Positions 10,817 to 57,913 of a DNA stretch of 64,000 nt are shown here, one piece after another (position 1 is the first letter of the stretch; every line of letters starts with the position of its first letter). The stretch is from Candidatus Kapaibacterium sp. (lineage in GTDB: Bacteria; Bacteroidota; Ignavibacteria; Kapaibacteriales; UBA4661). The stretch lies in NCBI GenBank assembly GCA_025358765.1, contig JANYIG010000093.1:65355-129354 (forward strand), read 5' to 3'. The position numbers and the translations under genes were made by a program. Under the pieces are notes generated by a model that was not told where the DNA came from, ran no database searches, and saw nothing but the letters and a program-made list of their open reading frames with translations.

Positions 10817-11299
10817 ATGCAATATATTCATGTTATTCGCACCGCGTGTTTTGCGGGTCTCGTGGGATTGAGCCTCTTCGTGCTGTCTGCTTGTACGAAA
10901 GAAGTGGTGTCACCCGGACAAATCTCGGAAGATTATTTTCCAATTATCAATGGTAATGCATGGGTAACACCGTCAGCAGCCCAAGCAGCGGGCGCAAAAG
11001 TCGCTGTAGAAGTGCAGTATTTATCGTATTCTTCTATTAAAGAAGTAAGTGGCTTACAAGTAGCAACACGCCGCGTAGGTACGGCAACGGTGATAGACAC
11101 AACGCGCTTTTTCACTATGGCATATACACCAGCATTTTCGGCAACGAAGCAGTGTGATACGCTTTTGCTTATGTACAGCGTACCAGATTCGGCGGGACTC
11201 TCGCGCACGGGATTGACGAATGTACGGATTCTCGCACGAGTGCTTACGCAAAGCGGCGTTTACAAAGAACGTGCGTCAAATACATTTACGATTAAATAA
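10817..11299 (+). CDS. Small lipoprotein downstream of SusC/SusD (SusE/F-like position), function unknown
   Basis: 160 aa with the signal and lipobox VLSACTKE. It sits in the same orientation as the locus. Confidence 0.45.
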   Translation: MQYIHVIRTACFAGLVGLSLFVLSACTKEVVSPGQISEDYFPIINGNAWVTPSAAQAAGAKVAVEVQYLSYSSIKEVSGLQVATRRVGTATVIDTTRFFTMAYTPAFSATKQCDTLLLMYSVPDSAGLSRTGLTNVRILARVLTQSGVYKERASNTFTIK

Positions 11300-11430
11300 A
11301 AAAGCGATGGAATATGCTTCATAATTCGCATTAGCTTGATTGTTTTATTACATTCAAAAATATAGCGTTAGAAAAATTAAGTTAAAGTGATTTTTTAGTT
11401 GTGAAGATGTAATTCTTTTGTAAATTTGCC

Positions 11431-11470
11431 TTCATCTAAACCATATAAAGTTTTAGATGAGGGCTTTTTT
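11431..11470 (+). terminator. Rho-independent terminator-like hairpin with T-tract after the SusC/SusD/lipoprotein unit
   Basis: The hairpin is ttcatctaaaccatataaagttttagatgagggc, followed by tttttt. Confidence 0.5.
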
Positions 11471-11523
11471 ATGCTTTACATAAGGCTTGTATTGTAACGT
11501 ACTTCTTCGAGGACAGAATAGCA

Positions 11524-12804
11524 ATGATGGACATGATGACGACGATGCTTCGGCTTGTTCCGCGCGTTGTGCTTTCAATGGCGGTGCTTTCGATTTTCCT
11601 TTTTTCGTTTTGTTCCCGCAAAGGAGAAGAAACGAAACAACAGGACGTGCCAACCATTACCTTCTGGCATTTTCGGAGTGAGCCGTCGCAACGTGCTGCA
11701 TTGGACAAACTCATCGCTCGTTTTGAGCAGGAAAATAATTGTAAAGTCCATAGTGTTCCGCTCAGTTGGGGCAACGGCAAAACCAAACTTTTTGCAGCGT
11801 TTAACTCGAACACTGCGCCCGACGTGCTACATCTTGGTGCTGATTGGATAGCACAATTTTCCGCTGGTGGCGTTTTGCGAAACCTTTCCAACGACGGCAT
11901 CAAACTTGACAGATTCGTGCCGTTTGTTGCACCCCCAGCCTTGTTCAAGGGCAGTGTTTATGCGCTTCCGTGGATTGTGGATACGCGAGTGATGTTTTAT
12001 AACAAAGATTTGCTCAAAAATGTCGGCGTTACAAAAACTCCCATGACGTTTACCGATGTGATGAACGCCTGCGAAAAAATCCGCGAGGCGAGTAGTGACG
12101 GCGTGTATGGATTTGGTGTGAACGGTGCGGACGAACACCGATTGTACAAAAAAATCCTGTCATTTTTTTGGAGTTCCGGCGGCGATGTGTTCGATGCAAG
12201 CGGTAAACCGATTATCAACAGCGCCGAAAACATCAAAGCCTTAGAAGCGTACATAGCGCTTGCACGGTGTGGTTTTGTTGAGACACAGCGCCAGTTAGAC
12301 AATATGTTTATTCAGGGGAAACTTGGTTTTGTGGTAACGGGAAGTTGGCTCTTAGACCAAATTAAGCGCGATAACGCCAAATTGAATTATGGAACGGCAC
12401 TTGTTCCGGGGCTGGCTGGCAAACAGAGTGTGTCGTTTGCAGGGGCGGATTATGTAGCGGTAAATGCGAAATCGTCGAATGCAGAGCTTGCCAAAAAATT
12501 TGCGCTGTTTATGACGAACGGTAAAAATACCTTAGAATTTTGCAAAGCGTTTAGTGAAGCGGGGTTTCCAGCGGATAAGAAGTTTGTGAACGATGAGTAT
12601 TTTGCCACCGTACCGCACCGTGACACGTTTTCGCAACAGCTTTTGAGTTCCAAAATGCCACCGGTGCATCCGCAGTGGCTCGACATCGAACATATTATCG
12701 AAGAAGCAACCGTAGAAGCGCTGCTTGGTAAAAAAACAGCGCAACAAGCACTTGACGACGCACAATGGCAGTTGACGGGAATCGTCTCTAAGCGACCAAC
12801 ATGA
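11524..12804 (+). CDS. Extracellular solute-binding protein (ABC-transporter substrate-binding, family 1, sugar-type) lipoprotein
   Basis: 426 aa. The N-terminal signal is followed by a Cys (FSFCSRK). The overall size and pattern fit SBP family 1. No permease or ATPase genes are adjacent. Confidence 0.65.
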   Translation: MMDMMTTMLRLVPRVVLSMAVLSIFLFSFCSRKGEETKQQDVPTITFWHFRSEPSQRAALDKLIARFEQENNCKVHSVPLSWGNGKTKLFAAFNSNTAPDVLHLGADWIAQFSAGGVLRNLSNDGIKLDRFVPFVAPPALFKGSVYALPWIVDTRVMFYNKDLLKNVGVTKTPMTFTDVMNACEKIREASSDGVYGFGVNGADEHRLYKKILSFFWSSGGDVFDASGKPIINSAENIKALEAYIALARCGFVETQRQLDNMFIQGKLGFVVTGSWLLDQIKRDNAKLNYGTALVPGLAGKQSVSFAGADYVAVNAKSSNAELAKKFALFMTNGKNTLEFCKAFSEAGFPADKKFVNDEYFATVPHRDTFSQQLLSSKMPPVHPQWLDIEHIIEEATVEALLGKKTAQQALDDAQWQLTGIVSKRPT

Positions 12805-32991: not shown

Positions 32992-33540
32992 ATGTCTAAT
33001 ATCGTACAACTTCATGACAAACGCTTCAAACCACTCATTCCCAGCACGGAAATTCACGCTGCGGTAAAGCGGCTCGGCGAGAAAATTAACGCAGATTACA
33101 ATGATAAAAACATCGTTTTCGTCATAGTGCTAAAGGGCAGTATGATGTTTGCTGCGGATTTGATTCGAGAGATTGCCGTTCCGTGTCGGTTGGAGTTTTT
33201 GAAGGCGGAAAGTTACGGCAGCGGAACGCACTCTTCTGGCGCAGTAAAAATTAATGCCCTGACAAGCATGAATTTGAGCGGCAAAGACGTGATTATCCTC
33301 GAAGACATCGTTGACACTGGACTTACGCTCAAAAAGATTCTCGAACATCTTGCGGAACTTGCACCCGCATCTGTTACAATCGCCACACTGCTTCTCAAAC
33401 CGGATGTTTGTAAAGGGACAGTTAAAACCGAATACGTGGGATTTGAGATTTCACCTTTGTTCGTGGTCGGTTACGGATTGGATTACGACGAAATTGGGCG
33501 TAATCTTCCCGATATTTACGTCCTTACAGAAGAAGAATAA
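32992..33540 (+). CDS. hpt: Hypoxanthine-guanine phosphoribosyltransferase
   Basis: The PRPP-binding motif VIILEDIVDTGLTL is present. The length is 182 aa. The tilS-hpt-ftsH order is conserved. Confidence 0.9.
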   Translation: MSNIVQLHDKRFKPLIPSTEIHAAVKRLGEKINADYNDKNIVFVIVLKGSMMFAADLIREIAVPCRLEFLKAESYGSGTHSSGAVKINALTSMNLSGKDVIILEDIVDTGLTLKKILEHLAELAPASVTIATLLLKPDVCKGTVKTEYVGFEISPLFVVGYGLDYDEIGRNLPDIYVLTEEE

Positions 33541-33608
33541 CGCAATAATTAAAATATTTCACGCTGAATAATACAATACTTGCACCGCTATCATCAAGGA
33601 GTCCTTTA

Positions 33609-35732
33609 ATGGAAACAACAGACGAACGAAAAAACACGCAGCAACAAAACGAGCCACCAAAGCCCGACCAGAAGAAAGAACCACCGCGCAAACCGCAAAA
33701 TCGTCCGAAGCGCAACAACTTCGGGGGCTTCAAGGGCGATGACGATTCTAATTCAGGAAAAGTGATGCGGACGGCTATGATTTGGCTTGCAATCTTTGGC
33801 TTTGTGATTGTGATGTACATGCTCGTCAACAGCAGTCAGCAAGCCGAAGTCAGTGTTTCATACACAGAATACAAACAGCTGCTCGACGCAAACAAAATTG
33901 GGTCTGCAACCGTCACAAAATCGCAGTTGAACGATTTCGTGTTTCATGGAACGTTGCGCGAGGAGGTGACAATTATCAAGAATAATACGCCGATTCCAGT
34001 TTCGCGCTTTTTCACGCGCTTGGGCGTTTTGGATTCGGACGTGGAAAAAGTCTGGGCAGAAAAAAATATTACCCTCAAATACGAAGAAGGCGACAATTGG
34101 TGGAGCGGTCTTCTGTTCTCAATGCTGCCGTGGATAGCCATTGTTGCGGTGTATTTTGTGGTGATGCGCCGAATGCAAAACGGCGGCTCGAAGGGCATTT
34201 TTTCTTTCGGCAAATCACGAGCGCGGCTTGTGAACGAAAACGCTAAAAAAGTGACGTTTGAAGACGTTGCTGGCGCTGACGAAGCAAAATATGAACTTGA
34301 AGAAATTATTGAGTTTCTCCGTGACCCCGATAAATTTCAACGTTTGGGCGGAAAGATTCCGCACGGCGTATTGATGCTCGGACCTCCGGGAACCGGTAAA
34401 ACCTTGCTTGCACGCGCTGTTGCGGGCGAAGCAGATGTGCCGTTCTTCTCAATTTCGGGTGCGGACTTCGTGGAAATGTTCGTAGGCGTTGGTGCAAGCC
34501 GCGTTCGTGACCTTTTCGAGCAAGCAAAGCGCAGCGCACCGTGTATTGTGTTTATTGACGAGATTGATGCTGTCGGTCGTCATCGTGGTGCGGGCTTGGG
34601 CGGCGGACACGACGAACGTGAACAAACATTGAACCAGCTTCTGGTTGAGATGGATGGTTTCGAGCAAAATAATGGTATCATTATTGTTGCTGCCACGAAT
34701 CGCGCTGATGTTCTTGACCCTGCTCTGCTCCGTCCCGGACGCTTTGATCGTCAAGTTGTGGTGGACAGACCAGATGTGAAGGGGCGCGAAGGGATTTTGA
34801 AGGTTCATGTACGGAACGTGCCGATTGCCGCCGATGTTGATTTGGCTGTGATTGCACGTGGTACGCCGGGTTTGTCGGGTGCGGACTTAGCAAACCTTAT
34901 CAATGAGGCAGCACTTTTCGCCGCGCGTCGCAGTGCCGATGCGGTAACGATGGGCGACATCGAAAGCGCAAAAGACAAAATTTTGATGGGCGTGGAGCGC
35001 AAAAGTATGGTTATCTCCGAGAAAGAAAAAGAAGTAACGGCGTACCACGAAATGGGACACGCGCTTGCCGGAAAACTGCTCCCAAACAGCGATCCTGTTC
35101 ACAAAGTGACGATTATCCCTCGTGGTCGTGCGCTTGGCGTTACGTCGTATCTGCCGAGCGAAGAAGCACATTCGTATTCACGGGATTATATCGAAACACG
35201 GCTTATTACCTTGCTTGCAGGACGTGCTGCGGAAATTATTGTGTTCAATCAGCTTACAACTGGTGCGAGTAACGACATTGAGCGAACCACTGCACTTGCT
35301 CGCAAGATGGTTTGTGAGTGGGGTATGAGCGACAAACTCGGTCCGCTCAACTTTGCAAGCAAAGACGAAGAGGTCTTTCTTGCTCGTGATATGTCGCATC
35401 CCCGCACGTTTGGCGAAGATACGGCTAAAGTCATTGATGAAGAAATTCGCCGCATTGTGACCGATGCAATGAGCAAAGCAGAACGACTTTTGCGCGACAA
35501 CCTCGACATGCTGCATAAAACCTCGAAAATCTTGCTTGAGCGTGAAGTACTTGATGCCGAAGAACTCGACATGATTTTGCGCGGTGAAGAGCTTCGTCCA
35601 ATGCCGCCGTCATTACGTCGTAATACAGGATTGAGTGCGCCGACAGTTTCGCCAGCCGCACCAATCATTGAGCCGAAGGCTACGAACGATGTAAGTGACA
35701 ATAACGCTCCGGCTGCTTCGTCCGAAGCATAA
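33609..35732 (+). CDS. ftsH: ATP-dependent zinc metalloprotease FtsH
   Basis: Walker A is GPPGTGKT. The second region of homology is [19 protein letters not shown]. The zinc motif HEMGHAL is present. There is a basic N-terminal extension and two TM segments. Confidence 0.95.
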
Positions 35733-35761
35733 ATACAGGCGTAATAAGCACTTAAAAAAAA

Positions 35762-35792
35762 CCGCATACGTCTTTTGTATGCGGTTTTTTTA
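35762..35792 (+). terminator. Rho-independent terminator after ftsH
   Basis: The perfect stem is ccgcatacgtcttttgtatgcgg, followed by ttttttta. Confidence 0.8.
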
Positions 35793-35870
35793 TTGCCGAA
35801 AAAATACGAACGTTTTGTATTTTTGAAACATTCATTCACACTTCATTCCACGTTAATCCGATACTGAATT

Positions 35871-36650
35871 ATGACCACGTATGAACATATTCTCGTTTCT
35901 TGCCCTGCTGAGGGTGTTGTTTCTATCCAACTCAACCGTCCGAAAGCCTTAAATGCGTTGAACTTTGCTATGATGGGCGAGGTAGTTTCGGCGCTTGAAT
36001 ACTACGACAAACAGGAAGGGACACGCTGCTTTTTATTACATGGCGACGAAAAAGCCTTTGCGGCGGGAGCCGACATTAAAGAAATGGCAAATGCTACGGC
36101 TATTGAGATGATGCAAAATGGTCACATCACACGCTGGGAAGATATTCACAATATCAAAAAGCCAATTATTGCTGCGGTAAGCGGATTTGCGCTTGGCGGC
36201 GGCTGTGAATTGATGATGCTCTGCGATATGGTTATTGCCAGCGAAAACGCACGGTTTGGGCAGCCAGAAATTAAAATTGGCGTTATCCCGGGTGCAGGTG
36301 GTACGCAGCGTTTGACAAAAGCCATCGGCAAAGCGCGTTCGATGGAACTCGTGCTTACAGGGAAAATGTTGTCGGCGCAGGATGCGTACGAGGCAGGGCT
36401 TATCACAAGGGTCGTTCCAGCAGCAGAGTGGTACACCGCTGCATTAGAATTAGCAAAAGAAGTGGCTTCGATGCCGCCGATTGCCGTTCGCGCTGCAAAA
36501 GAAGCCATACTAAAATCTTTCGACCTCACGATTGACGCGGGCTTGGAGTTCGAGCGTCGGAATTTTTACCTTCTGTTTGCCACCGAAGATATGCGCGAGG
36601 GCATGAAAGCGTTTATCGAAAAACGCAAACCGATGTGGACGGGACGGTAA
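35871..36650 (+). CDS. Enoyl-CoA hydratase/isomerase (crotonase family)
   Basis: 259 aa. The crotonase fold pattern is present (GFALGGGCELMMLCDMVIAS, FGQPEIKIGVIPGAGGTQRL). Confidence 0.85.
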   Translation: MTTYEHILVSCPAEGVVSIQLNRPKALNALNFAMMGEVVSALEYYDKQEGTRCFLLHGDEKAFAAGADIKEMANATAIEMMQNGHITRWEDIHNIKKPIIAAVSGFALGGGCELMMLCDMVIASENARFGQPEIKIGVIPGAGGTQRLTKAIGKARSMELVLTGKMLSAQDAYEAGLITRVVPAAEWYTAALELAKEVASMPPIAVRAAKEAILKSFDLTIDAGLEFERRNFYLLFATEDMREGMKAFIEKRKPMWTGR

Positions 36651-36671
36651 ATTACAAAAAATGAATTAACG

Positions 36672-36714
36672 GGATTTTCAGAGTACATCAATACTCTGAA
36701 AATTCCGTTTTTTA
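36672..36714 (+). terminator. Rho-independent terminator after the enoyl-CoA hydratase gene
   Basis: The hairpin is ggattttcagagtacatcaatactctgaaaattcc, followed by gttttttatt. Confidence 0.7.
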
Positions 36715-36851
36715 TTGTGGAGGCTGGTTCTCAGAGAAAACTTTCGTAGCTTTGTAAGCTGTTGAACAACCTTCAGCAAACCGTGAGCTGCCCGTGTATG
36801 GTTGTGTGCCACACAAAGCAGTATATTTTTCGCATTTTTCAGACATAACGA

Positions 36852-37496
36852 ATGGAACTCTTGCAATCATTGATTGACCTATTTCTACACTTAGACACGC
36901 ATCTTGGCGAGATTATCACGAATTATGGTACGTGGACGTACGCCATTCTTTTTACGATTATCTTTTGCGAAACGGGTTTAGTCGTAGCACCGTTTTTGCC
37001 CGGTGACTCGCTGCTTTTTGCGGCAGGTGCGCTGGCTGCCGCCACTGGTGCAATGGAGCCGCTCACACTCGTGATTCTGTTAGGCATAGCTGCCATTTTG
37101 GGTGATACGGTGAATTATTCTATTGGCAAAATATTTGGCAATAAAGTATTGCAGAAATTCACGTTTATCAAACGCGAGCATATTGAATACACCGAACGGT
37201 TTTACGCTAAACACGGCGGTAAAACTATTATCTTTGCCCGTTTCGCACCGATTGTCCGCACGTTTGCGCCGTTCGTGGCAGGCATCGGGGCGATGAACTA
37301 CGGGCGGTTCGTGCTGTTCAACGTTGTGTGCGGCATTGCATGGGTGACCTCATTCATTTACATCGGTTATTTTTTTGGCAATATCCCCGTTGTGAAACGC
37401 AATTTCACGCTCATCATTGTAGCAATCGTGATAATATCGGTTCTTCCCGCCGTGCTGGAGTTTGTGCGTCAGCGCTTTGGCAAAAAGTCGGCATGA
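36852..37496 (+). CDS. DedA/SNARE-associated family membrane protein
   Basis: 214 aa. The DedA pattern is present ([37 protein letters not shown]). Confidence 0.75.
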
Positions 37497-37566
37497 GATG
37501 AATACTCCCGCTTGCACTGACTAATTAAATTCATGAATTCATACAAAGACAATTGGAGTTGTTAAA

Positions 37567-38040
37567 ATGAAAAATAAATCGGCAAAAATTTCATCAATTT
37601 TAGTAGGTGTTTCAGGAGAATACTTTGTTGCAGCAGAACTGTCAAGAAGAGGCTATATCTCTTCTGTAACTTTAAAAAACACTAAAGGAATTGATATTTT
37701 GGTTGCTAATGAATCTGCAACAAAGACGATTGGAATTCAAGTAAAAACAAACCAAAAAAACGAAAAAAAATGGATACTTAACAAAAAGGCAGAAGATTTG
37801 TGTAGTGATAATTTATTTTACGTCTTTGTTAACTTAATTGGCGTTGAGCAATTACCAGAGTACTACATATTTTCAAGTAAGAACGTAGCTGCTACTGTGA
37901 AAGCAGAGCATCAAAATTGGCTTAAAACTGGAGGTAAGAACGGACAGCCACGTAAAGATCAATCAATTAGAATGTTCCAAGTCGACGATAAAACACATCC
38001 AAACGGGTGGAATATATTAGAGGATATATTAAAACTGTAA
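37567..38040 (+). CDS. Low-GC (about 33%) horizontally acquired gene encoding a PD-(D/E)XK nuclease-fold protein (Hjc/YraN-like, restriction-endonuclease-like) of unknown function
   Basis: The motif order is E18/E24 (GEYFVAAELSRRGY), D43 (KGIDILVAN) and Q58-x-K60 (IGIQVKT), followed by the hydrophobic strand FYVFVNL. A GGAG Shine-Dalgarno sequence lies 9 nt upstream. The composition contrasts sharply with the flanking genes, which are about 50-55% GC. Confidence 0.6.
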   Translation: MKNKSAKISSILVGVSGEYFVAAELSRRGYISSVTLKNTKGIDILVANESATKTIGIQVKTNQKNEKKWILNKKAEDLCSDNLFYVFVNLIGVEQLPEYYIFSSKNVAATVKAEHQNWLKTGGKNGQPRKDQSIRMFQVDDKTHPNGWNILEDILKL

Positions 38041-38093
38041 TATGTTAAGCGCACAAACTTAGCACGTAGCACGTAATACTCTACCATTCACTT

Positions 38094-39566
38094 TTGACCT
38101 CCATGTTCGATTTACCCGTTCTGAACATCACTGAAACCGCACTCCACGACAACGAGCAGGGTTCGCCTGTATTTGATATGCTGGATATGCCCAATGCACC
38201 TATTACGCGTGCCACCCGAAAACTTTACGTGGAAACCTATGGCTGCGCCATGAACGTGAGCGATTCGGAAATTGTGATGGGCGTGATGCACAAAAGCGGC
38301 TATGTCATGACGGATAAACCGGACGATGCGGACGTGATTTTGCTCAACACGTGCGCCATCCGCGACGGTGCCGAACGCAAGATTCATGAGCGCCTGAAGC
38401 ATCTCAAGTTTTACAAACGGAAGCGCCGCGACCTCGTTATCGGCATTTTGGGCTGTATGGCAGAGCGGATGCGGGATGAACTTATCACAGAAAAACAAAT
38501 CGTGGATTTGGTGGTCGGTCCCGACGAGTACCGCGCCTTACCGCAGCTTATTGCAAAAGCATACGAGGGCGAAAAAGGCATTGCCGTGAAACTGAGCCGC
38601 GTGGAAACCTACGACGATATCGTGCCGCTCCGCACAGAAGGCATCAGTGCATGGATTTCTGTTTCGCGCGGTTGCGATAAGTTTTGTACGTTTTGCGTCG
38701 TGCCGTTCACACGTGGGCGTGAGCGTTCACGGTCGTTGCAGCTTATTGTAGATGAAGCAAAACAGTTGTGGGATAGCGGTTTTAAGGAAATCACGCTGCT
38801 TGGACAAAACGTGAATAGTTATCACGACGACGCGAGTAATCAAGATTTTGCCGACTTGCTTGCCCGTACAGCTCGCGCCGTACCACAAATGCGGATTCGC
38901 TACTCAACCTCGCACCCCTACGATATGAGCGACAAGCTCATCGAAACAATGGCGGAGCACGATAACGTTTGCAAATATGTCCACCTGCCCGTGCAATCTG
39001 GTTCTGACCGCGTGTTGGAGGCAATGAATCGCCATTACACCATTGCTCATTACATCGAACGCATGCAAAAAATCAAAGACGTGATGCCGCAATGTGCGCT
39101 TTCAACCGACATTATTGTTGGCTTCCCGACCGAAACCGAAGAGGAGCATCAAATGACGATGGCATTGATGCAGGAAGTACGCTACGACGGCGCGTTTATG
39201 TTCAAATATTCACCACGTGAAAAAACAAAAGCGTGGAAAATGGGTGATGATGTGTCGGAAGAAGTGAAAACACGACGTTTGAGTGAAATCATTGAGCAAC
39301 AGCACCAAATTTCTCACGAAATAAACCAAACCACGATTGGCACAATCGAACGGGTGTTGGTCGAAGGTCTCAGCCGTCGTGATTCTACGGCATGGCAAGG
39401 GCGCACGGACAGTAACAAACGAACGATGTTCACCCACATCACGAATGCAGGCGAACTGAATGCCGAAGGCAAGACTGCAGGCTACGTTGTGGGCGACACG
39501 GTGACGGTTCGTATTCAACGCGCAACGTCTGCGACGCTTATCGGGGAAATCGTTCTCAATTCTTGA
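38094..39566 (+). CDS. miaB: tRNA-2-methylthio-N6-isopentenyladenosine synthase (MiaB-like radical-SAM methylthiotransferase)
   Basis: The MTTase N-terminal domain is YVETYGCAMNVSDSE. The radical-SAM motif is CDKFCTFC. A C-terminal TRAM-like region is present. MiaB versus RimO/MtaB cannot be fully resolved. Confidence 0.8.
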   Translation: MTSMFDLPVLNITETALHDNEQGSPVFDMLDMPNAPITRATRKLYVETYGCAMNVSDSEIVMGVMHKSGYVMTDKPDDADVILLNTCAIRDGAERKIHERLKHLKFYKRKRRDLVIGILGCMAERMRDELITEKQIVDLVVGPDEYRALPQLIAKAYEGEKGIAVKLSRVETYDDIVPLRTEGISAWISVSRGCDKFCTFCVVPFTRGRERSRSLQLIVDEAKQLWDSGFKEITLLGQNVNSYHDDASNQDFADLLARTARAVPQMRIRYSTSHPYDMSDKLIETMAEHDNVCKYVHLPVQSGSDRVLEAMNRHYTIAHYIERMQKIKDVMPQCALSTDIIVGFPTETEEEHQMTMALMQEVRYDGAFMFKYSPREKTKAWKMGDDVSEEVKTRRLSEIIEQQHQISHEINQTTIGTIERVLVEGLSRRDSTAWQGRTDSNKRTMFTHITNAGELNAEGKTAGYVVGDTVTVRIQRATSATLIGEIVLNS

Positions 39567-54444: not shown

Positions 54445-56694
54445 TTACATGTCAACAATGAACGACAACTGGACGGCTCTTCCTGGCTGTGGTAACAGCG
54501 AGCTATAAAAATCGCCATCCTTGCTGCCCACCCACACGCCAGCATTAGTAAAGGTGCCGGGAGTATTGCCCGCGCCACCGGTTCGTACGCCAGGGTGAAA
54601 ATATTGCGCGTCAAAGATGTTTGTCATGCGGAGTGCCACGCCAAAACCTTTGGCAAAAAGGTTGCTGTACAGAATGTTGGCATCCATCGTGAAATAAGAA
54701 TCTACCTGCCCTAATGGGTTCGTAGAAACGGTGATACGTTTGCCAATAGATCGACTGCGGAGTGTTACGCTCAAATCCTGCGTAATGTCAGCTGTCGCAC
54801 CCAAATAAAATTTCACGTCAGCAAGGTCGCCGATGCGGGCAACATTATCCGTTATTGCTCCTTTCACAACTTGCTTTTCTTCTGAACTGATAAAAGACAC
54901 ATAACCCCAAATACTTAATTTCTCCATAAACGAAACGGGTACGAGAGCCTGAAGATGAATGTCAACACCGGATACCTTACGGACACCGAGGTTTTTTGCT
55001 CCACCCGCCACATTCACAATTGTACTATCGTTCTGGATAAAATAAGCGTTCACCATACCGCTCACATACTGCGTGGTATAACTTACGCTACCTTCTAATG
55101 TTTTAGAAAGCTCCGGGCTGAGTGCGGGGTCGCTTCCCGAACCTCTCCACCCGCCAAAGAGCAAGCGCGGGGTTGGTTCTTGGAATGCCTCGCCGTAGAG
55201 AAGTTTTACACCCAATTTGCCGAAATTACCCACGTATCCGGCGCGAATTGTGCTTGCCTGCCCGTAAACTGAGTTGTCGTCTATCCGAAGTCCAGCGGTA
55301 AAGTTGTGTTCCTCATCTAATCCCAAAATATTTTTGATTTGATATTTGCCTTGAAGGTAAATGCCTTGGTCTATGACAAAAATGCGATTGCGATATTGTC
55401 GCGTATCCACTGGCGGTGCGGGTAAATCTTTATTCACGTCAAACTTGGCAGGCTCAAGGGAAGCACTGTAAGGATTATCATATGCCTTTTGTAAATCACG
55501 TCGTTCATATTTCAAGCCGGCATTGAAGGAAAGCGCGTCGGTAGCTTTATAGTTAAAATCCTGATAAACCGAAATGCTGCTGCAAAGCGCCTGCCAATAT
55601 GAAAAATCTACCACCCGTCCTCCCTGTACGGTTGCCGGATATCCTTCAACGAAATAGGAGTCGTTGGCAACATCGCTCTCGCGGAAGCGCAGAAATGTTG
55701 TGCTTGAGAATTTGTCGTTAAATTGTTGTGTGTGACGCAGATGCAAACTCCATTGGGGGCGTGACCAAAGAGCGCTCGGCTGTACTTGGTCGAAAGGATA
55801 TTCGGGTCCGTAGCCAGTACGCATGGCGCTATAAAGAAAACCCGCTTCGGTGCTGCCGAGGTAAACGCGGGCATCTATGGCGCTATTTTCATGGGGCGAC
55901 TGTGGGTTGCCACCCAAATTTGGATTATCCAAAAATGCACCCCACAAACGGCGGTCACGCAGATACTTCGGCTTCGTATATTCGTAATTTGAAAGCGTAG
56001 TCGTATCAATAACACCTTCGTCGAAACGTCCGGTTAAACTCACACGAAAATCATCCTTTTTGTACATCAGATTTACGTCGGCGATTCTGCTCTTGAGCGA
56101 GCCAGCAGATAATCGAGAATGAACAGCGATTCCATTGGACTGGTCATCTTTAATAGTAATCACGTTGATAACACCCATAAAGGCGTTTGGACCATAGACC
56201 GATGAGGCTGGACCATAGACAATCTCTATGCGCTCAACATTAGAAAGCGGCAATGCCGATATTCCTTCAGCCTCGTTAAAGTACATATTATTTTGGATAA
56301 TGTTATCCACCATGAGCAAGTATGGCGAGCCGATGTTGTTGCGATAGCCGCGCCAGTAGTTTTTGGAATATGTGTCGCCGTAAGCGCGAATAACATCCAT
56401 ACCTGGTAGGTCGTCAAAAATTTCTGACATTTCTAAATACCCACGTTTGAGAATATCTTTTTTTGTCAACACAATCACCGTTGCCGGAGCATCGGAAAGT
56501 TTTTCTGCTTTGTTGGATGCTGAAATGATTTCAATATTCAGCAATTCCTCAAGTCCCATTTCATCTAACGTTTTTACTTTTACTTGCCGCGTTTCTTGTT
56601 GCGCTAACACGCACGTTGCAAAGAGCGAAAAGGTAAGGAGCAGAGTAATGATGCTCCACATAGCCAATAAATACTTTTTCATAATTCCTCCCAA
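54445..56694 (-). CDS. TonB-dependent outer-membrane receptor
   Basis: A signal peptide is followed by a plug domain (DAPATVIVLTKKDI, IEIVYGPASSVYGPNAF) and a beta-barrel. The length is 749 aa. Confidence 0.8.
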   Translation of the reverse strand: MGGIMKKYLLAMWSIITLLLTFSLFATCVLAQQETRQVKVKTLDEMGLEELLNIEIISASNKAEKLSDAPATVIVLTKKDILKRGYLEMSEIFDDLPGMDVIRAYGDTYSKNYWRGYRNNIGSPYLLMVDNIIQNNMYFNEAEGISALPLSNVERIEIVYGPASSVYGPNAFMGVINVITIKDDQSNGIAVHSRLSAGSLKSRIADVNLMYKKDDFRVSLTGRFDEGVIDTTTLSNYEYTKPKYLRDRRLWGAFLDNPNLGGNPQSPHENSAIDARVYLGSTEAGFLYSAMRTGYGPEYPFDQVQPSALWSRPQWSLHLRHTQQFNDKFSSTTFLRFRESDVANDSYFVEGYPATVQGGRVVDFSYWQALCSSISVYQDFNYKATDALSFNAGLKYERRDLQKAYDNPYSASLEPAKFDVNKDLPAPPVDTRQYRNRIFVIDQGIYLQGKYQIKNILGLDEEHNFTAGLRIDDNSVYGQASTIRAGYVGNFGKLGVKLLYGEAFQEPTPRLLFGGWRGSGSDPALSPELSKTLEGSVSYTTQYVSGMVNAYFIQNDSTIVNVAGGAKNLGVRKVSGVDIHLQALVPVSFMEKLSIWGYVSFISSEEKQVVKGAITDNVARIGDLADVKFYLGATADITQDLSVTLRSRSIGKRITVSTNPLGQVDSYFTMDANILYSNLFAKGFGVALRMTNIFDAQYFHPGVRTGGAGNTPGTFTNAGVWVGSKDGDFYSSLLPQPGRAVQLSFIVDM

Positions 56695-56965
56695 GATGTA
56701 TGTTGAATAAGTATTAAATTTTTGTACGTACCTGTCCTAAAATCCCCTCGTTAAGATACCATTTTTGAGGATGAAAAGAAGTAAATTCTTGAAGCAATAT
56801 ACCTTTTTATAAATCGAATAGACACAAAGCTAAACGTCCGCAAATATTTTGCAGCAGTGGTGCAAATACCCAAAGCAAATAAAAGTCTTGATAGTTGCTC
56901 GGAATATCTTGTACACAAGTATAAAAGCGATTTTCAAGGCAATCTTCACCAAATTATCTGTGGCA

Positions 56966-57913
56966 TCAAAGTTTGAATGGATAGAGCAAGTAAAAGCGTG
57001 GTGGGTGATTCGGGCTGAATTCAATGGCGGGTGCTGGTAGCTTTATCATGTTGACGTACTGCCGGAGCCAGTTCCAGAACGTGCCGCCTTCAGGCAAAAT
57101 TTTTTCGAGGTCGAAGTCGAAGCTGATGATGTATTTGCGACTTGCGTCGTCCCAGTCAATGTTACGTGCGGCGTAGCCAACTGCTATGTTTAACCACGAT
57201 GGATACCACTGTTGAAGCGGCTCCGGGAGCAAGTTGTGGACGTTTATGGAAAGCCACCATGTCCACGCGCTGTAATCGTCAATCACCGACAAGGCGTATT
57301 TGCGGGTTTTTTCGCCTATCCACGGCGAGGGAAAAAAGTCTGCTTTTGGTGTGAAATTTTGTAGGAACGGCGAATAATGACGGGCGATGTAGAATCCTGA
57401 ACCAAGTACATTGAACATCATATCCGATGGCGAAAACCCCCAATTCACGCCATATCCGTCCAATACTTCCACGTAAAATTGGTATCCCAAACCCATCAGT
57501 CCACCGCAGATAACCGCAAAATCCCAGTCGTAGCCAGCACCCATAAGTGCATCGGTAGCAAGTTTGGATTCAAGATAACTGCCCACAAAATGCCCACCTT
57601 TGTCGGCATTGAGTTCCACATCCCAATCGTCAACGATACGGAACGATGCCTGTTTCGCCCAAATTGTGTTTGCCTGATATATGTGCAAGCCAGCAATCAA
57701 GCCCGCTGTTCCTGCACCAATGAGTGCGGCAGTGAAGGGTTTTATCTGCGTTGTACGGCGCGGTTGCGAACCGTCAATCGTGTACAAGTGTTGTCCAGCA
57801 TACTGAAACTCGTTCCATGGAATAAATTCGGTGGAATCTTGCTGTGCGCGGGCGGTGTGCATGGTGAAAAACCACAGGAGCAAGCAAAAAAAAGGCGTTC
57901 GGAGGTGGTGCAT
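56966..57913 (-). CDS. Secreted DUF2279-like protein, a paralog of 16760..17656
   Basis: A signal peptide is present. The C-terminal third aligns with 16760..17656. Confidence 0.6.
   Translation of the reverse strand: MHHLRTPFFCLLLWFFTMHTARAQQDSTEFIPWNEFQYAGQHLYTIDGSQPRRTTQIKPFTAALIGAGTAGLIAGLHIYQANTIWAKQASFRIVDDWDVELNADKGGHFVGSYLESKLATDALMGAGYDWDFAVICGGLMGLGYQFYVEVLDGYGVNWGFSPSDMMFNVLGSGFYIARHYSPFLQNFTPKADFFPSPWIGEKTRKYALSVIDDYSAWTWWLSINVHNLLPEPLQQWYPSWLNIAVGYAARNIDWDDASRKYIISFDFDLEKILPEGGTFWNWLRQYVNMIKLPAPAIEFSPNHPPRFYLLYPFKL

What the first reader, a model, noticed from the sequence alone, without database searches (positions are those of the whole stretch)
37497..38093. Single-gene low-GC island encoding an uncharacterised PD-(D/E)XK (Hjc/YraN-like) nuclease-fold protein between dedA and miaB
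The 474-bp ORF is about 33% GC in a region that is otherwise about 50-55% GC. Its lysine and asparagine codon usage is AT-skewed, unlike its neighbours. The 157-aa product carries the canonical restriction-endonuclease-fold motif order: E18/E24 in GEYFVAAELSRRGY, D43 in GIDILV, Q58-V-K60 in IQVKT, then the hydrophobic strand FYVFVNL. No methyltransferase, antitoxin, integrase or tRNA is adjacent. It is therefore an orphan compact nuclease-like gene acquired horizontally. It could be a solitary defence or abortive-infection effector, a toxin, or a degenerate mobile-element remnant. Its family could not be named from memory.
Basis: partly seen in the sequence, partly recalled or inferred. Interest (0 to 1): 0.7.

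Follow-up and report, generated by a model that had tools for sequence, protein, structure and literature searches.

The report
Lone horizontally acquired restriction-fold nuclease gene
A single foreign gene of about 570 bp, encoding a small DNA-cutting enzyme from a large unstudied family, has been inserted between two housekeeping genes; it is most likely a stand-alone defence nuclease, but that function is inferred and was not tested.

Summary
The ORF at 37567-38040 (157 aa) is real. At 32.7% GC it is the lowest-GC stretch of its length in the 48.1% GC window.

The family is large (3,628 representatives at 50% identity). It has no passing Pfam, NCBIfam or PADLOC match, no solved structure, and I found no literature on it.

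Horizontal acquisition is shown directly. More distant relatives have dedA, a spacer of about 45 bp, then miaB. A near-identical strain from a sister sample has an empty site, with a sharp recombination breakpoint 50-165 nt upstream of the island. Across 68 genomes no partner gene is conserved, 12 of 57 nearest relatives lie in the other domain of life, and single-gene islands recur.

The most likely function is a partnerless, self-sparing restriction-type defence nuclease, possibly modification-dependent (about 0.4). Rivals are a selfish homing-type nuclease, a structure-specific nuclease and an abortive-infection effector.

The parts
37567..38040 (+). Nuclease gene, 157 aa, pI 9.45. It encodes a stand-alone PD-(D/E)XK endonuclease of an uncharacterised family, with catalytic candidates E18/E24, D43, Q58-x-K60 and E76, plus a conserved C-terminal extension (W118, G123, G126, R135, F137, W148).
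   Evidence: ORF and translation; conservation; AF2 model with pLDDT 85.3 and pTM 0.81; fold matches; pI.
37497..37566 (+). 70-nt upstream spacer carried with the gene. It cannot be aligned to the empty-site spacers beyond the first ~6 nt (GATGAA). A Shine-Dalgarno-like GGAG lies at 37555-37558, 8 nt before the ATG. A weak sigma-70-like match lies at 37477-37506.
   Evidence: Sequence; junction comparison; promoter scan (5 sites found against 4.1 expected, so not significant).
37501..37518 (.). Left copy of an imperfect 18-nt direct repeat (AATACTCCCGCTTGCACT) bracketing the insert. The first 7 nt (AATACTC) are exact. It marks the approximate left edge of the inserted DNA.
   Evidence: Repeat D4 with 574-nt spacing. 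It may be chance or microhomology, because the family as a whole shows no excess of flanking repeats.
38075..38092 (.). Right copy of the bracketing repeat (AATACTCTACCATTCACT, 13 of 18 identical to the left copy). From about here the sequence again aligns with the native dedA-miaB spacer of the empty-site strain L072 (CTACCATTCA...).
38041..38074 (+). Downstream non-coding part of the insert. It has no terminator and no stable or attC-like hairpin.
   Evidence: Terminator scan; RNA fold z-score 0.22.
37445..37496 (+). 3' end of dedA forming a diverged tract linked to the island. Nine of 52 nt differ from the empty-site allele, all at synonymous third positions or in the stop codon, against 0-1 differences in the preceding ~750 nt. 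A recombination breakpoint therefore lies between 37329 and 37445.
   Evidence: Fisher p = 1e-10.
36852..37496 (+). dedA (VTT/SNARE-associated membrane protein), the native upstream flank. It is directly adjacent to miaB in relatives.
38103..39566 (+). miaB (tRNA methylthiotransferase), the native downstream flank. The ATG at 38103 aligns with the start in relatives; the ORF lister's TTG at 38094 is probably not the start. No terminator separates dedA, the nuclease gene and miaB, so read-through transcription is likely.

Best explanation
Shown: the island is a recently and horizontally acquired single-gene insertion of about 574 bp in the native ~45-75-bp dedA-miaB spacer. It encodes an intact, compact, basic, stand-alone PD-(D/E)XK (restriction-endonuclease-fold) protein. 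The protein belongs to a very large uncharacterised family that has moved repeatedly between bacterial and archaeal phyla, usually without any partner gene and often as a lone gene.

Inferred: the protein is a Mg2+-dependent DNA endonuclease, probably working as a homo-oligomer. The metal site would be built from D43, Q58 and K60 together with a helix-1 glutamate (E18 or E24) and possibly E76.

Inferred: a partnerless nuclease can only be tolerated if it spares host DNA. I therefore propose that it acts as a solitary restriction-type defence nuclease that recognises a feature absent from host DNA. Modified bases of phage or foreign DNA are the most likely such feature, in the manner of Type IV or BisI-like enzymes. 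The conserved C-terminal extension would contribute substrate recognition.

Shown by the flank pattern, with direction unknown: the gene spreads within a lineage by homologous recombination of its flanks.
For: - The QVK variant of the motif is catalytically competent in the BisI family, where mutants are inactive (PMC11347163).
- The only Pfam families hit by family members are in the PD-(D/E)XK clan: PDDEXK_5 9/91, NOV_C 6, Mrr_cat 5, DUF4365 1.
- Acquisition: relatives have dedA, a spacer of about 45 bp, then miaB and scpB. The near-identical strain L072 has an empty site, with a breakpoint and diverged tract beside the island.
- Composition: GC is 32.7% against 48.1%. The homologue has lower GC than its flanks in 56 of 68 genomes. 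Single-gene low-GC islands occur in about 9 of 16 high-contrast loci, between housekeeping genes.
- Transfer: the nearest relative is in the same phylum for only 23 of 57 members and in the other domain of life for 12 of 57.
- Partnerless: no neighbour is conserved and there is no hidden ORF in the island.
- Defence leaning: the most recurrent neighbour families at both the +/-1 and +/-2 positions are R-M components (ResIII, N6_Mtase, HsdM_N, Eco57I/MmeI, Mrr_cat, DNA_methylase, MvaI_BcnI, Type_ISP_C). The close homologue P0010 sits head-to-head with a Type I hsdM-hsdS pair.
- Fusion evidence: one family representative is fused to DUF4268. That domain is otherwise mostly found in GmrSD Type IV enzymes (PMC4619093) and in the validated modification-dependent nucleases MdgA and MdgB.
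- The family is cellular: the same patterns found 68 loci in genomes and 1 in 2.9 million viral contigs.
Against: - No enzymatic or phage-defence test exists for any member.
- The defence association is modest. Most loci have housekeeping or ORFan neighbours. Only 2 of 119 immediate neighbours hit any one PADLOC family at E <= 1e-5, the most for any family (Type IIG R-M). The protein itself matches no PADLOC model.
- There is no separate modified-base reader domain.
- The structural neighbours do not discriminate between functions, and the top one is a homing endonuclease rather than a restriction enzyme.
- Several hosts carry DNA methyltransferases right next to the gene. That would conflict with a simple m6A- or m5C-dependent specificity.
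- Homology to MdgA could not be tested because its sequence is not held.
Confidence: 0.4

Rival explanations
1. Selfish, free-standing homing-type endonuclease gene. The enzyme would cut the empty dedA-miaB allele of related cells after DNA exchange, and repair from an occupied copy would then copy the gene in, along with a short tract of flanking sequence (intron-less homing).
For: - The unit is a precise single-gene insertion with no integrase or transposase.
- Occupied and empty alleles coexist in sister samples, with a sharply diverged tract starting 50-165 nt from the insert, which resembles co-conversion.
- Lone-gene islands between housekeeping genes recur in other phyla.
- About 10-15% of copies look truncated or degraded, as expected for a cycle of invasion and decay.
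Against: - The 68 loci share no neighbour and no flank motif, and they show no excess of flanking repeats. A homing enzyme with a conserved recognition surface should show a conserved site.
- Sequence conservation across the whole protein is unusually high across phyla. That does not fit re-targeting to many different sites.
- There is no intron or intein context.
- A diverged flank tract is equally expected from ordinary homologous-recombination import of an accessory gene.
- The family is rare in phages, where free-standing homing genes thrive.
Confidence: 0.15
2. Accessory structure-specific nuclease, similar to Hjc or RecU. It would cut branched or other unusual DNA structures in repair or recombination, or in attack on phage replication intermediates. 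It would be harmless to duplex host DNA and so would need no immunity partner.
For: - A structure that is the same in every host would explain the high cross-phylum conservation and the absence of any partner.
- The protein is small and basic.
Against: - There is no Pfam Hjc hit at E <= 10.
- The distribution is patchy and horizontally scrambled, with presence/absence polymorphism between near-identical strains. That marks a dispensable accessory gene, not a core recombination function.
- The family is almost absent from viral contigs, where Hjc-like resolvases are common.
- The archaea that carry it would already have Hjc (established knowledge).
Confidence: 0.15
3. Abortive-infection or toxin-type effector. 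This would be a non-specific nuclease kept inactive, by low expression or by needing a phage-derived trigger or oligomerisation, and unleashed on infection so that the infected cell dies.
For: - It shares the fold with effector nuclease domains that are activated by assembly, such as the SPARDA nuclease domain and DUF4365.
- It is a single-gene accessory island, and distant phage homologues lie beside a RelE toxin module.
Against: - There is no sensor domain and no antitoxin or partner in 68 loci.
- It is embedded, with no terminator on either side, in what looks like a constitutively transcribed dedA-miaB unit, which would be risky for an unrestrained toxin.
- There is no PADLOC match.
Confidence: 0.1
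4. Inactive remnant of a decayed restriction-modification system or mobile element, with no current function.
For: It is solitary and compositionally foreign. Surveys find that many solitary restriction genes are fragments (PMC3488263 abstract).
Against: - The ORF is full length with all catalytic residues intact.
- 34 positions are invariant across 40 homologues at 54-70% identity, including the C-terminal extension.
- Thousands of full-length homologues of the same size exist.
- It has a Shine-Dalgarno-like site.
Confidence: 0.03

Closest known systems
I-Ssp6803I (PDB 2OST; Pfam PF11645 PDDEXK_5), the PD-(D/E)XK homing endonuclease of the cyanobacterial tRNA-fMet group I intron
   Different: - The window protein does not match PF11645 at all (E > 10).
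- Neither family profiles nor divergent members match the 2OST sequence.
- Sequence identity is 12-17%.
- The gene is not in an intron or a tRNA gene.
- Insertion sites differ in every lineage.
- The family has its own conserved C-terminal signature.
Archaeal Holliday-junction resolvase Hjc (PDB 2WCW, 1GEF, 1HH1; Pfam PF01870)
   Different: There is no Pfam Hjc hit. The window protein has Gln instead of Glu in the xK motif, an extra C-terminal extension of about 50 aa, and a horizontally scattered accessory distribution rather than a vertically inherited core gene.
BisI family of 5-methylcytosine-dependent restriction endonucleases (NhoI, Eco15I; PDB 8Q5N, 8Q5M)
Mrr-type Type IV restriction nuclease domain (Pfam PF04471 Mrr_cat)
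   Same: It is the only Pfam hit of the window protein (residues 18-65, E 0.013). It has the same 'GxD ... QxK' active-site configuration, and it is a methyltransferase-independent restriction enzyme found beside Type I R-M loci, like homologue P0010.
   Different: The score of 16.1 bits is below the 21-bit cutoff. Mrr has an N-terminal winged-helix reader domain (my own knowledge; not checked here) that is absent here.
MdgA and MdgB, metagenome-derived modification-dependent antiphage nucleases (Cell Host Microbe 2025, PMC12366544)
   Same: MdgA is a single-gene defence nuclease that is widespread across phyla, with an architecture of nuclease plus DUF4268 and a catalytic Glu at position 77. 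One family representative (P0131) has this nuclease domain followed by DUF4268, and the family has a nearly invariant E76.
   Different: The window protein has no DUF4268 domain.

Membership tests
PD-(D/E)XK nuclease superfamily (restriction-endonuclease fold) | Alpha-beta-beta-beta-alpha-beta core fold | tested here: met
PD-(D/E)XK nuclease superfamily (restriction-endonuclease fold) | Catalytic residues in canonical order: acidic residue on helix 1, Asp at the start of strand 2, and (D/E/Q)xK on strand 3 | tested here: met
   The residues are E18/E24, D43 and Q58-V-K60. D43 and K60 are invariant and E24 and Q58 are at least 90% conserved in 91 diverse members. The QVK variant is shown to be active in NhoI and Eco15I.
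PD-(D/E)XK nuclease superfamily (restriction-endonuclease fold) | Metal-dependent phosphodiester hydrolysis | not testable with these tools
   This needs biochemistry.
PDDEXK_5 / I-Ssp6803I homing endonucleases (PF11645) | Score above the Pfam gathering threshold (26.1 bits) | tested here: not met
   The window protein has no hit at E <= 10. Among relatives, 9 of 91 hit at E <= 0.01 (best 5e-7), and several score 23-26 bits, just below the cutoff.
PDDEXK_5 / I-Ssp6803I homing endonucleases (PF11645) | Encoded inside a self-splicing element (a group I intron in tRNA-fMet) | tested here: not met
   There is no Rfam family in 36600-38700 at E <= 1 other than spurious hits on a terminator. There is no tRNA in 27-48 kb. 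The gene lies in an intergenic spacer.
PDDEXK_5 / I-Ssp6803I homing endonucleases (PF11645) | Recurrent insertion at one conserved target site | tested here: not met
   The 68 loci share no neighbour, no flank motif and no excess of flanking repeats.
PDDEXK_5 / I-Ssp6803I homing endonucleases (PF11645) | Cleavage of the empty allele; long pseudo-palindromic target; tetramer | not testable with these tools
   The empty allele is available for testing (L072).
Hjc Holliday-junction resolvase (PF01870) | Pfam membership and a core, vertically inherited distribution | tested here: not met
Type IV / modification-dependent restriction enzymes (Mrr, BisI family) | Nuclease gene that functions without a cognate methyltransferase | tested here: met
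   There is no methyltransferase in the island or adjacent to it, and no conserved methyltransferase neighbour in 68 loci. This shows absence of a partner, not function.
Type IV / modification-dependent restriction enzymes (Mrr, BisI family) | Sequence membership (Mrr_cat at or above 21 bits, or homology to BisI-family proteins) | tested here: not met
Type IV / modification-dependent restriction enzymes (Mrr, BisI family) | Cleavage dependent on modified bases; a modified-base sensing element | not testable with these tools
   There is no separate reader domain. The role of the conserved C-terminal extension is unknown. The DUF4268 fusion in P0131 is only a hint.
Toxin-antitoxin module | Adjacent antitoxin gene | tested here: not met
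   There is no ORF larger than 42 aa in the island other than the nuclease gene, and no recurrent small neighbour.
Integron gene cassette | attC recombination site (structured imperfect inverted repeat) at the 3' end, near an integrase | tested here: not met
   The downstream region folds no better than shuffled sequence (z 0.22). There are no significant inverted repeats at the edges and no integrase nearby.

The most novel reading that the evidence does not exclude
The family is a cellular, free-standing homing-type nuclease, meaning a single-gene selfish element that invades intergenic spacers of bacterial and archaeal chromosomes without an intron, intein, transposase or integrase. It would propagate by cutting empty alleles and co-converting the flanks. 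The window would then have caught it with both the occupied and the empty allele, and the conversion tract, still visible in one population.
Probability: 0.13. Interest if true: 0.75.

Novelty: new member of a known kind. Interest (0 to 1): 0.42.

Why it matters
If the defence reading is right, this would be one of the smallest and most widely transferred single-gene immunity nucleases. It comprises 3,628 clusters at 50% identity across many bacterial phyla and several archaeal ones, and it is missing from Pfam, NCBIfam and PADLOC, so genome annotation and defence-system censuses currently do not see it.

A 157-aa self-sparing nuclease would also be a compact candidate reagent, for example for cutting modified DNA.

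This locus is an unusually clean natural experiment, because occupied and empty alleles with a mapped recombination breakpoint coexist in sister metagenome samples. It could show how single accessory genes spread through core-genome flanks. It would also allow a direct test of the more unusual possibility that a PD-(D/E)XK gene homes in cellular chromosomes.

Tried and rejected
- Sequence searches against the PDB with the protein, with two family profiles and with two divergent members found nothing real.
- NCBIfam gave no hit. The only PADLOC hit is a short, weak and implausible methyltransferase match.
- PHROGs 29029 and 26985 match well but have unknown function.
- Conserved-partner search: blastp clustering of +/-3 neighbours gave a largest cluster of 4 loci. 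Pfam and PADLOC scans of the +/-1 and +/-2 neighbours found no family in more than 4 of about 115.
- Mobile-element signatures were not found. The bracketing 18-nt imperfect repeat is not a family trait, since flank repeats equal those of control genes and there is no shared motif. There is no attC-like fold or terminator, no tRNA, no group I intron or other Rfam element, and no second copy in the window.
- Phage and plasmid vehicles are rare and distant: 4 Burkholderia phages at about 28% identity, 6 plasmids, and 1 IMG/VR contig.
- I tried to delimit the right end of the diverged tract through MiaB relatives, but no 76-99% identical MiaB is on record.
- I tried to obtain the MdgA sequence, but no supplement is held.
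- The AFDB fold library was unavailable.
- By eye, the N-terminal extension of P0165, P0213 and P0214 looked like DUF6508. BLASTP gave E = 25 and Pfam gave no hit, so I dropped that idea.
- The other low-GC patches in the window are ordinary intergenic regions.
- The look-up of encoding contigs could not locate the window's own contig.

Full report
**1. The observation**

The window holds a 474-bp ORF at 37567-38040 on the + strand. It encodes 157 aa and lies between dedA (36852-37496) and miaB (38094 or 38103 to 39566), all on the same strand.

- Its GC content is 32.7% and its GC3 is 25.9%. Neighbouring genes are 45-51% GC with GC3 of 44-57%.
- It is the lowest-GC 474-bp stretch of the 64-kb window, about 4.4 SD below the 48.1% mean.
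AAA is 79% of Lys codons against 75% in the neighbours, and AAT is 38% of Asn codons against 52%. The true codon contrast is in TTA, AGA, ATA and GC3.
- No tRNA, Rfam element, terminator or structured RNA, or partner ORF larger than 42 aa lies in or next to the island.

**2. What the protein is**

- Library searches cannot name it. Pfam gives only Mrr_cat below threshold (16.1 bits against a 21-bit cutoff). NCBIfam gives nothing. PADLOC gives nothing credible. Two PHROGs of unknown function match.
- The family is nevertheless large. There are 2,430 90%-identity clusters with E <= 1e-3 and 3,628 50%-identity representatives in an exhaustive profile search. Nearly all are stand-alone proteins of about 150 aa, and every name given is 'hypothetical'.
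- Forty homologues at 54-70% identity to the query share 34 invariant positions. These include E18, D43, Q58 and K60, plus a C-terminal signature of W118, G123, G126, R135, F137 and W148.
- In 91 more diverse members, D43 and K60 stay invariant, and E24, Q58, W69, E76, R135 and W148 are at least 90% conserved.
- An AlphaFold2 model built on the alignment is confident (pLDDT 85.3, pTM 0.81) and has the helix, three strands, helix, strand core.
- NhoI uses 'WD' and 'QVK' motifs, and mutating its active site abolishes cleavage (PMC11347163). The ID43 and Q58-V-K60 arrangement here is therefore a proven active configuration.
- Across the family, the Pfam model touched most often is PDDEXK_5, the I-Ssp6803I family (9/91, best E 5e-7). 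The other families hit by more than one member (NOV_C, Mrr_cat) and DUF4365 are also PD-(D/E)XK-clan families.
- No sequence-level link to any solved structure exists.
- Conclusion: this is an unclassified family of the PD-(D/E)XK clan. It lies nearest to the I-Ssp6803I, Hjc and Mrr corner of that clan and has its own C-terminal extension of about 50 residues.

**3. Horizontal acquisition is shown directly**

The DedA and MiaB homologues place the organism among Kapaibacteria/Ignavibacteria-type Bacteroidota.

- In relatives whose DedA is 76-79% identical, dedA is followed after 45-47 bp by miaB and then scpB (L073-L077).
- Three short contigs carry a DedA that differs from the window's by one residue (nt 37329). 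Two of them (L070 and L071) carry the island.
- The third (L072, from the sister run SRR22198308) goes from dedA through a 74-bp spacer straight into miaB.
- L071 and L072 are identical for about 750 nt. They then differ at 9 of the last 52 nt of dedA, all synonymous or in the stop codon (Fisher p = 1e-10). Divergence continues into the 5' end of miaB, which includes a 9-nt indel.
- The island therefore sits in a patch of DNA with a different history from the surrounding chromosome, and a recombination breakpoint lies 50-165 nt upstream of it.
- Either the island was imported with its flanks from a diverged relative that already carried it at this site, or the empty allele was imported. The direction cannot be decided, and the right-hand end could not be found.
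- An imperfect 18-nt direct repeat (AATACTC...CACT, 13 of 18 identical) brackets the insert exactly, 574 nt apart.

**4. Behaviour of the family elsewhere**

- In 68 genome loci, the homologue has lower GC than its flanks in 56, and by more than 5 points in 32.
- In about 9 of 16 high-contrast loci the low-GC patch is 1 kb or less and holds only this gene. It lies between ordinary genes such as TtuA and HisRS, or RidA and an SDR.
- No neighbour is conserved.
- There is no excess of flanking repeats over control genes and no shared flank motif.
- Only 23 of 57 proteins have their nearest relative in the same phylum. Twelve have it in the other domain of life, at up to 74-75% identity. MAG mis-binning may contribute to some of these cases.
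- With the same search patterns, the family gives 68 loci in about 186,000 genomes but only 1 in 2.9 million viral contigs. It is rare and distant in cultured phages and in plasmids.
- The most recurrent neighbour families, although each occurs in only 2-4 loci, are R-M components. One close homologue sits head-to-head with a Type I hsdM-hsdS pair, and others lie in runs of ORFans.
- Rare fusions add DUF6508, DUF4268, or an unassigned N-terminal domain of about 130 aa.
- DUF4268 is otherwise mostly found in GmrSD Type IV enzymes (PMC4619093). It also occurs in MdgA and MdgB, recently validated single-gene modification-dependent antiphage nucleases (PMC12366544).
- MdgA's catalytic mutant is E77A, and this family has a nearly invariant E76. 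Homology could not be tested because the MdgA sequence is not held.

**5. How it most likely works**

- Shown: an intact, conserved, basic (pI 9.45) PD-(D/E)XK protein with a complete catalytic set. It is encoded by a lone foreign gene that has a Shine-Dalgarno-like site and no terminator on either side, so it is probably co-transcribed with dedA and miaB.
- Inferred: it is a Mg2+-dependent DNA endonuclease.
- Inferred: a nuclease with no methyltransferase, antitoxin or sensor partner must spare host DNA by its own specificity. The four ways to do that are modified-base dependence, a very long rare target, structure specificity, or latency until a trigger arrives.
- I favour a solitary restriction-type defence nuclease, most plausibly modification-dependent (about 0.4). 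Five points support this: the partnerless accessory lifestyle; the mild but consistent R-M neighbourhood signal; the precedent of BisI for a single-domain QVK enzyme of this size; the Mrr-like active-site pattern; and the DUF4268 fusion.
- High cross-phylum conservation fits a fixed, host-independent substrate feature.
- The homing reading (about 0.15) is attractive because of the I-Ssp6803I resemblance and the conversion-like tract. It is weakened by the diversity of insertion sites with no shared motif, and by strong conservation of the whole protein.
- A structure-specific nuclease (about 0.15) explains both the conservation and the harmlessness, but not the accessory, scrambled distribution.
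- An abortive-infection effector (about 0.1) lacks any sensor or partner.
- A dead remnant (about 0.03) is contradicted by the conservation.

**6. Novelty and verdict**

The kind is known: compact PD-(D/E)XK nucleases acting as solitary defence or selfish genes. The family itself is undescribed. It has no Pfam, NCBIfam or PADLOC model and no solved structure, and the literature searches I ran turned up no description of it. It is a new member of a known kind.

Interest is moderate. The fold and the orphan status will not surprise a specialist. What makes it a good and inexpensive experimental target is the combination of family size, inter-domain mobility as a lone gene with no visible mobility machinery, and a locus where the occupied allele, the empty allele and the recombination breakpoint are all in hand.

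Noticed in passing
window 37329: The window carries a private first-codon-position (non-synonymous) variant in dedA. Three other assemblies of the same lineage (L070, L071, L072) all have the other base, so the DedA protein differs by one residue (P0273 against P0274).
   Followed up: partly
L070 (ends at window 37933) and L071 (ends at window 37665): Two independent assemblies of the island-bearing strain break their contigs inside the nuclease gene. That fits strain-level heterogeneity at this locus in the source community, with occupied and empty alleles coexisting.
   Followed up: partly
window 38094-38110: The ORF lister starts miaB at TTG 38094. The ATG at 38103 (ATGTTCGATTTACC) is the position conserved in the empty-site strain L072, so it is the more likely start.
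   Followed up: partly
window 38166-38190: The 5' end of miaB has a 9-nt in-frame insertion relative to L072, next to a tandem GATATGC repeat (38175 and 38184). This looks like a small slippage duplication within the diverged tract.
   Followed up: no
window 36668-36709: A strong terminator-like hairpin (18-bp stem followed by a T-run) lies between the enoyl-CoA hydratase gene and dedA. It attracted spurious sub-threshold Rfam miRNA and snoRNA hits. It implies that dedA, the nuclease gene and miaB form a transcription unit separate from the upstream genes.
   Followed up: partly
window ~11211-11770 and ~56341-57050: These are the only other stretches below 38% GC in the window. They are intergenic regions and gene 5' ends (between a lipoprotein gene and a sugar-binding protein gene, and upstream of a TonB-dependent receptor), not further foreign genes.
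   Followed up: yes
L073-L077 against window 33000-37000: Synteny downstream of dedA (miaB, then scpB) is conserved with relatives, but upstream it is not. Relatives have a divergent CitMHS-type transporter gene, whereas the window has hpt, ftsH and an enoyl-CoA hydratase gene. dedA therefore sits at a rearrangement boundary.
   Followed up: no
proteins P0171 and P0222; P0165, P0213 and P0214; P0131; P0259: Rare fusions of the family's nuclease domain:
- a C-terminal DUF6508 (two representatives);
- a recurrent unassigned N-terminal domain of about 130 aa (three representatives; not DUF6508 by BLASTP or Pfam);
- a C-terminal DUF4268 (one);
- a partial GAF domain followed by low-complexity sequence (one, possibly a gene-calling artefact).
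   Followed up: partly
L069 (Burkholderia phage vB_E253, PV072766.1 51994-52518): The distant phage homologue (about 28% identity) lies at the genome end, next to a RelE-like toxin and regulator pair and an HNH endonuclease. This looks like an accessory or moron-type region.
   Followed up: no
L023, L025, L035, L057, L060, L061, L064, L067, L068: About 10-15% of the genomic copies lack an intact full-length ORF, being truncated, partial or without a callable ORF. Some are cut by contig ends, while others look like decaying copies.
   Followed up: no
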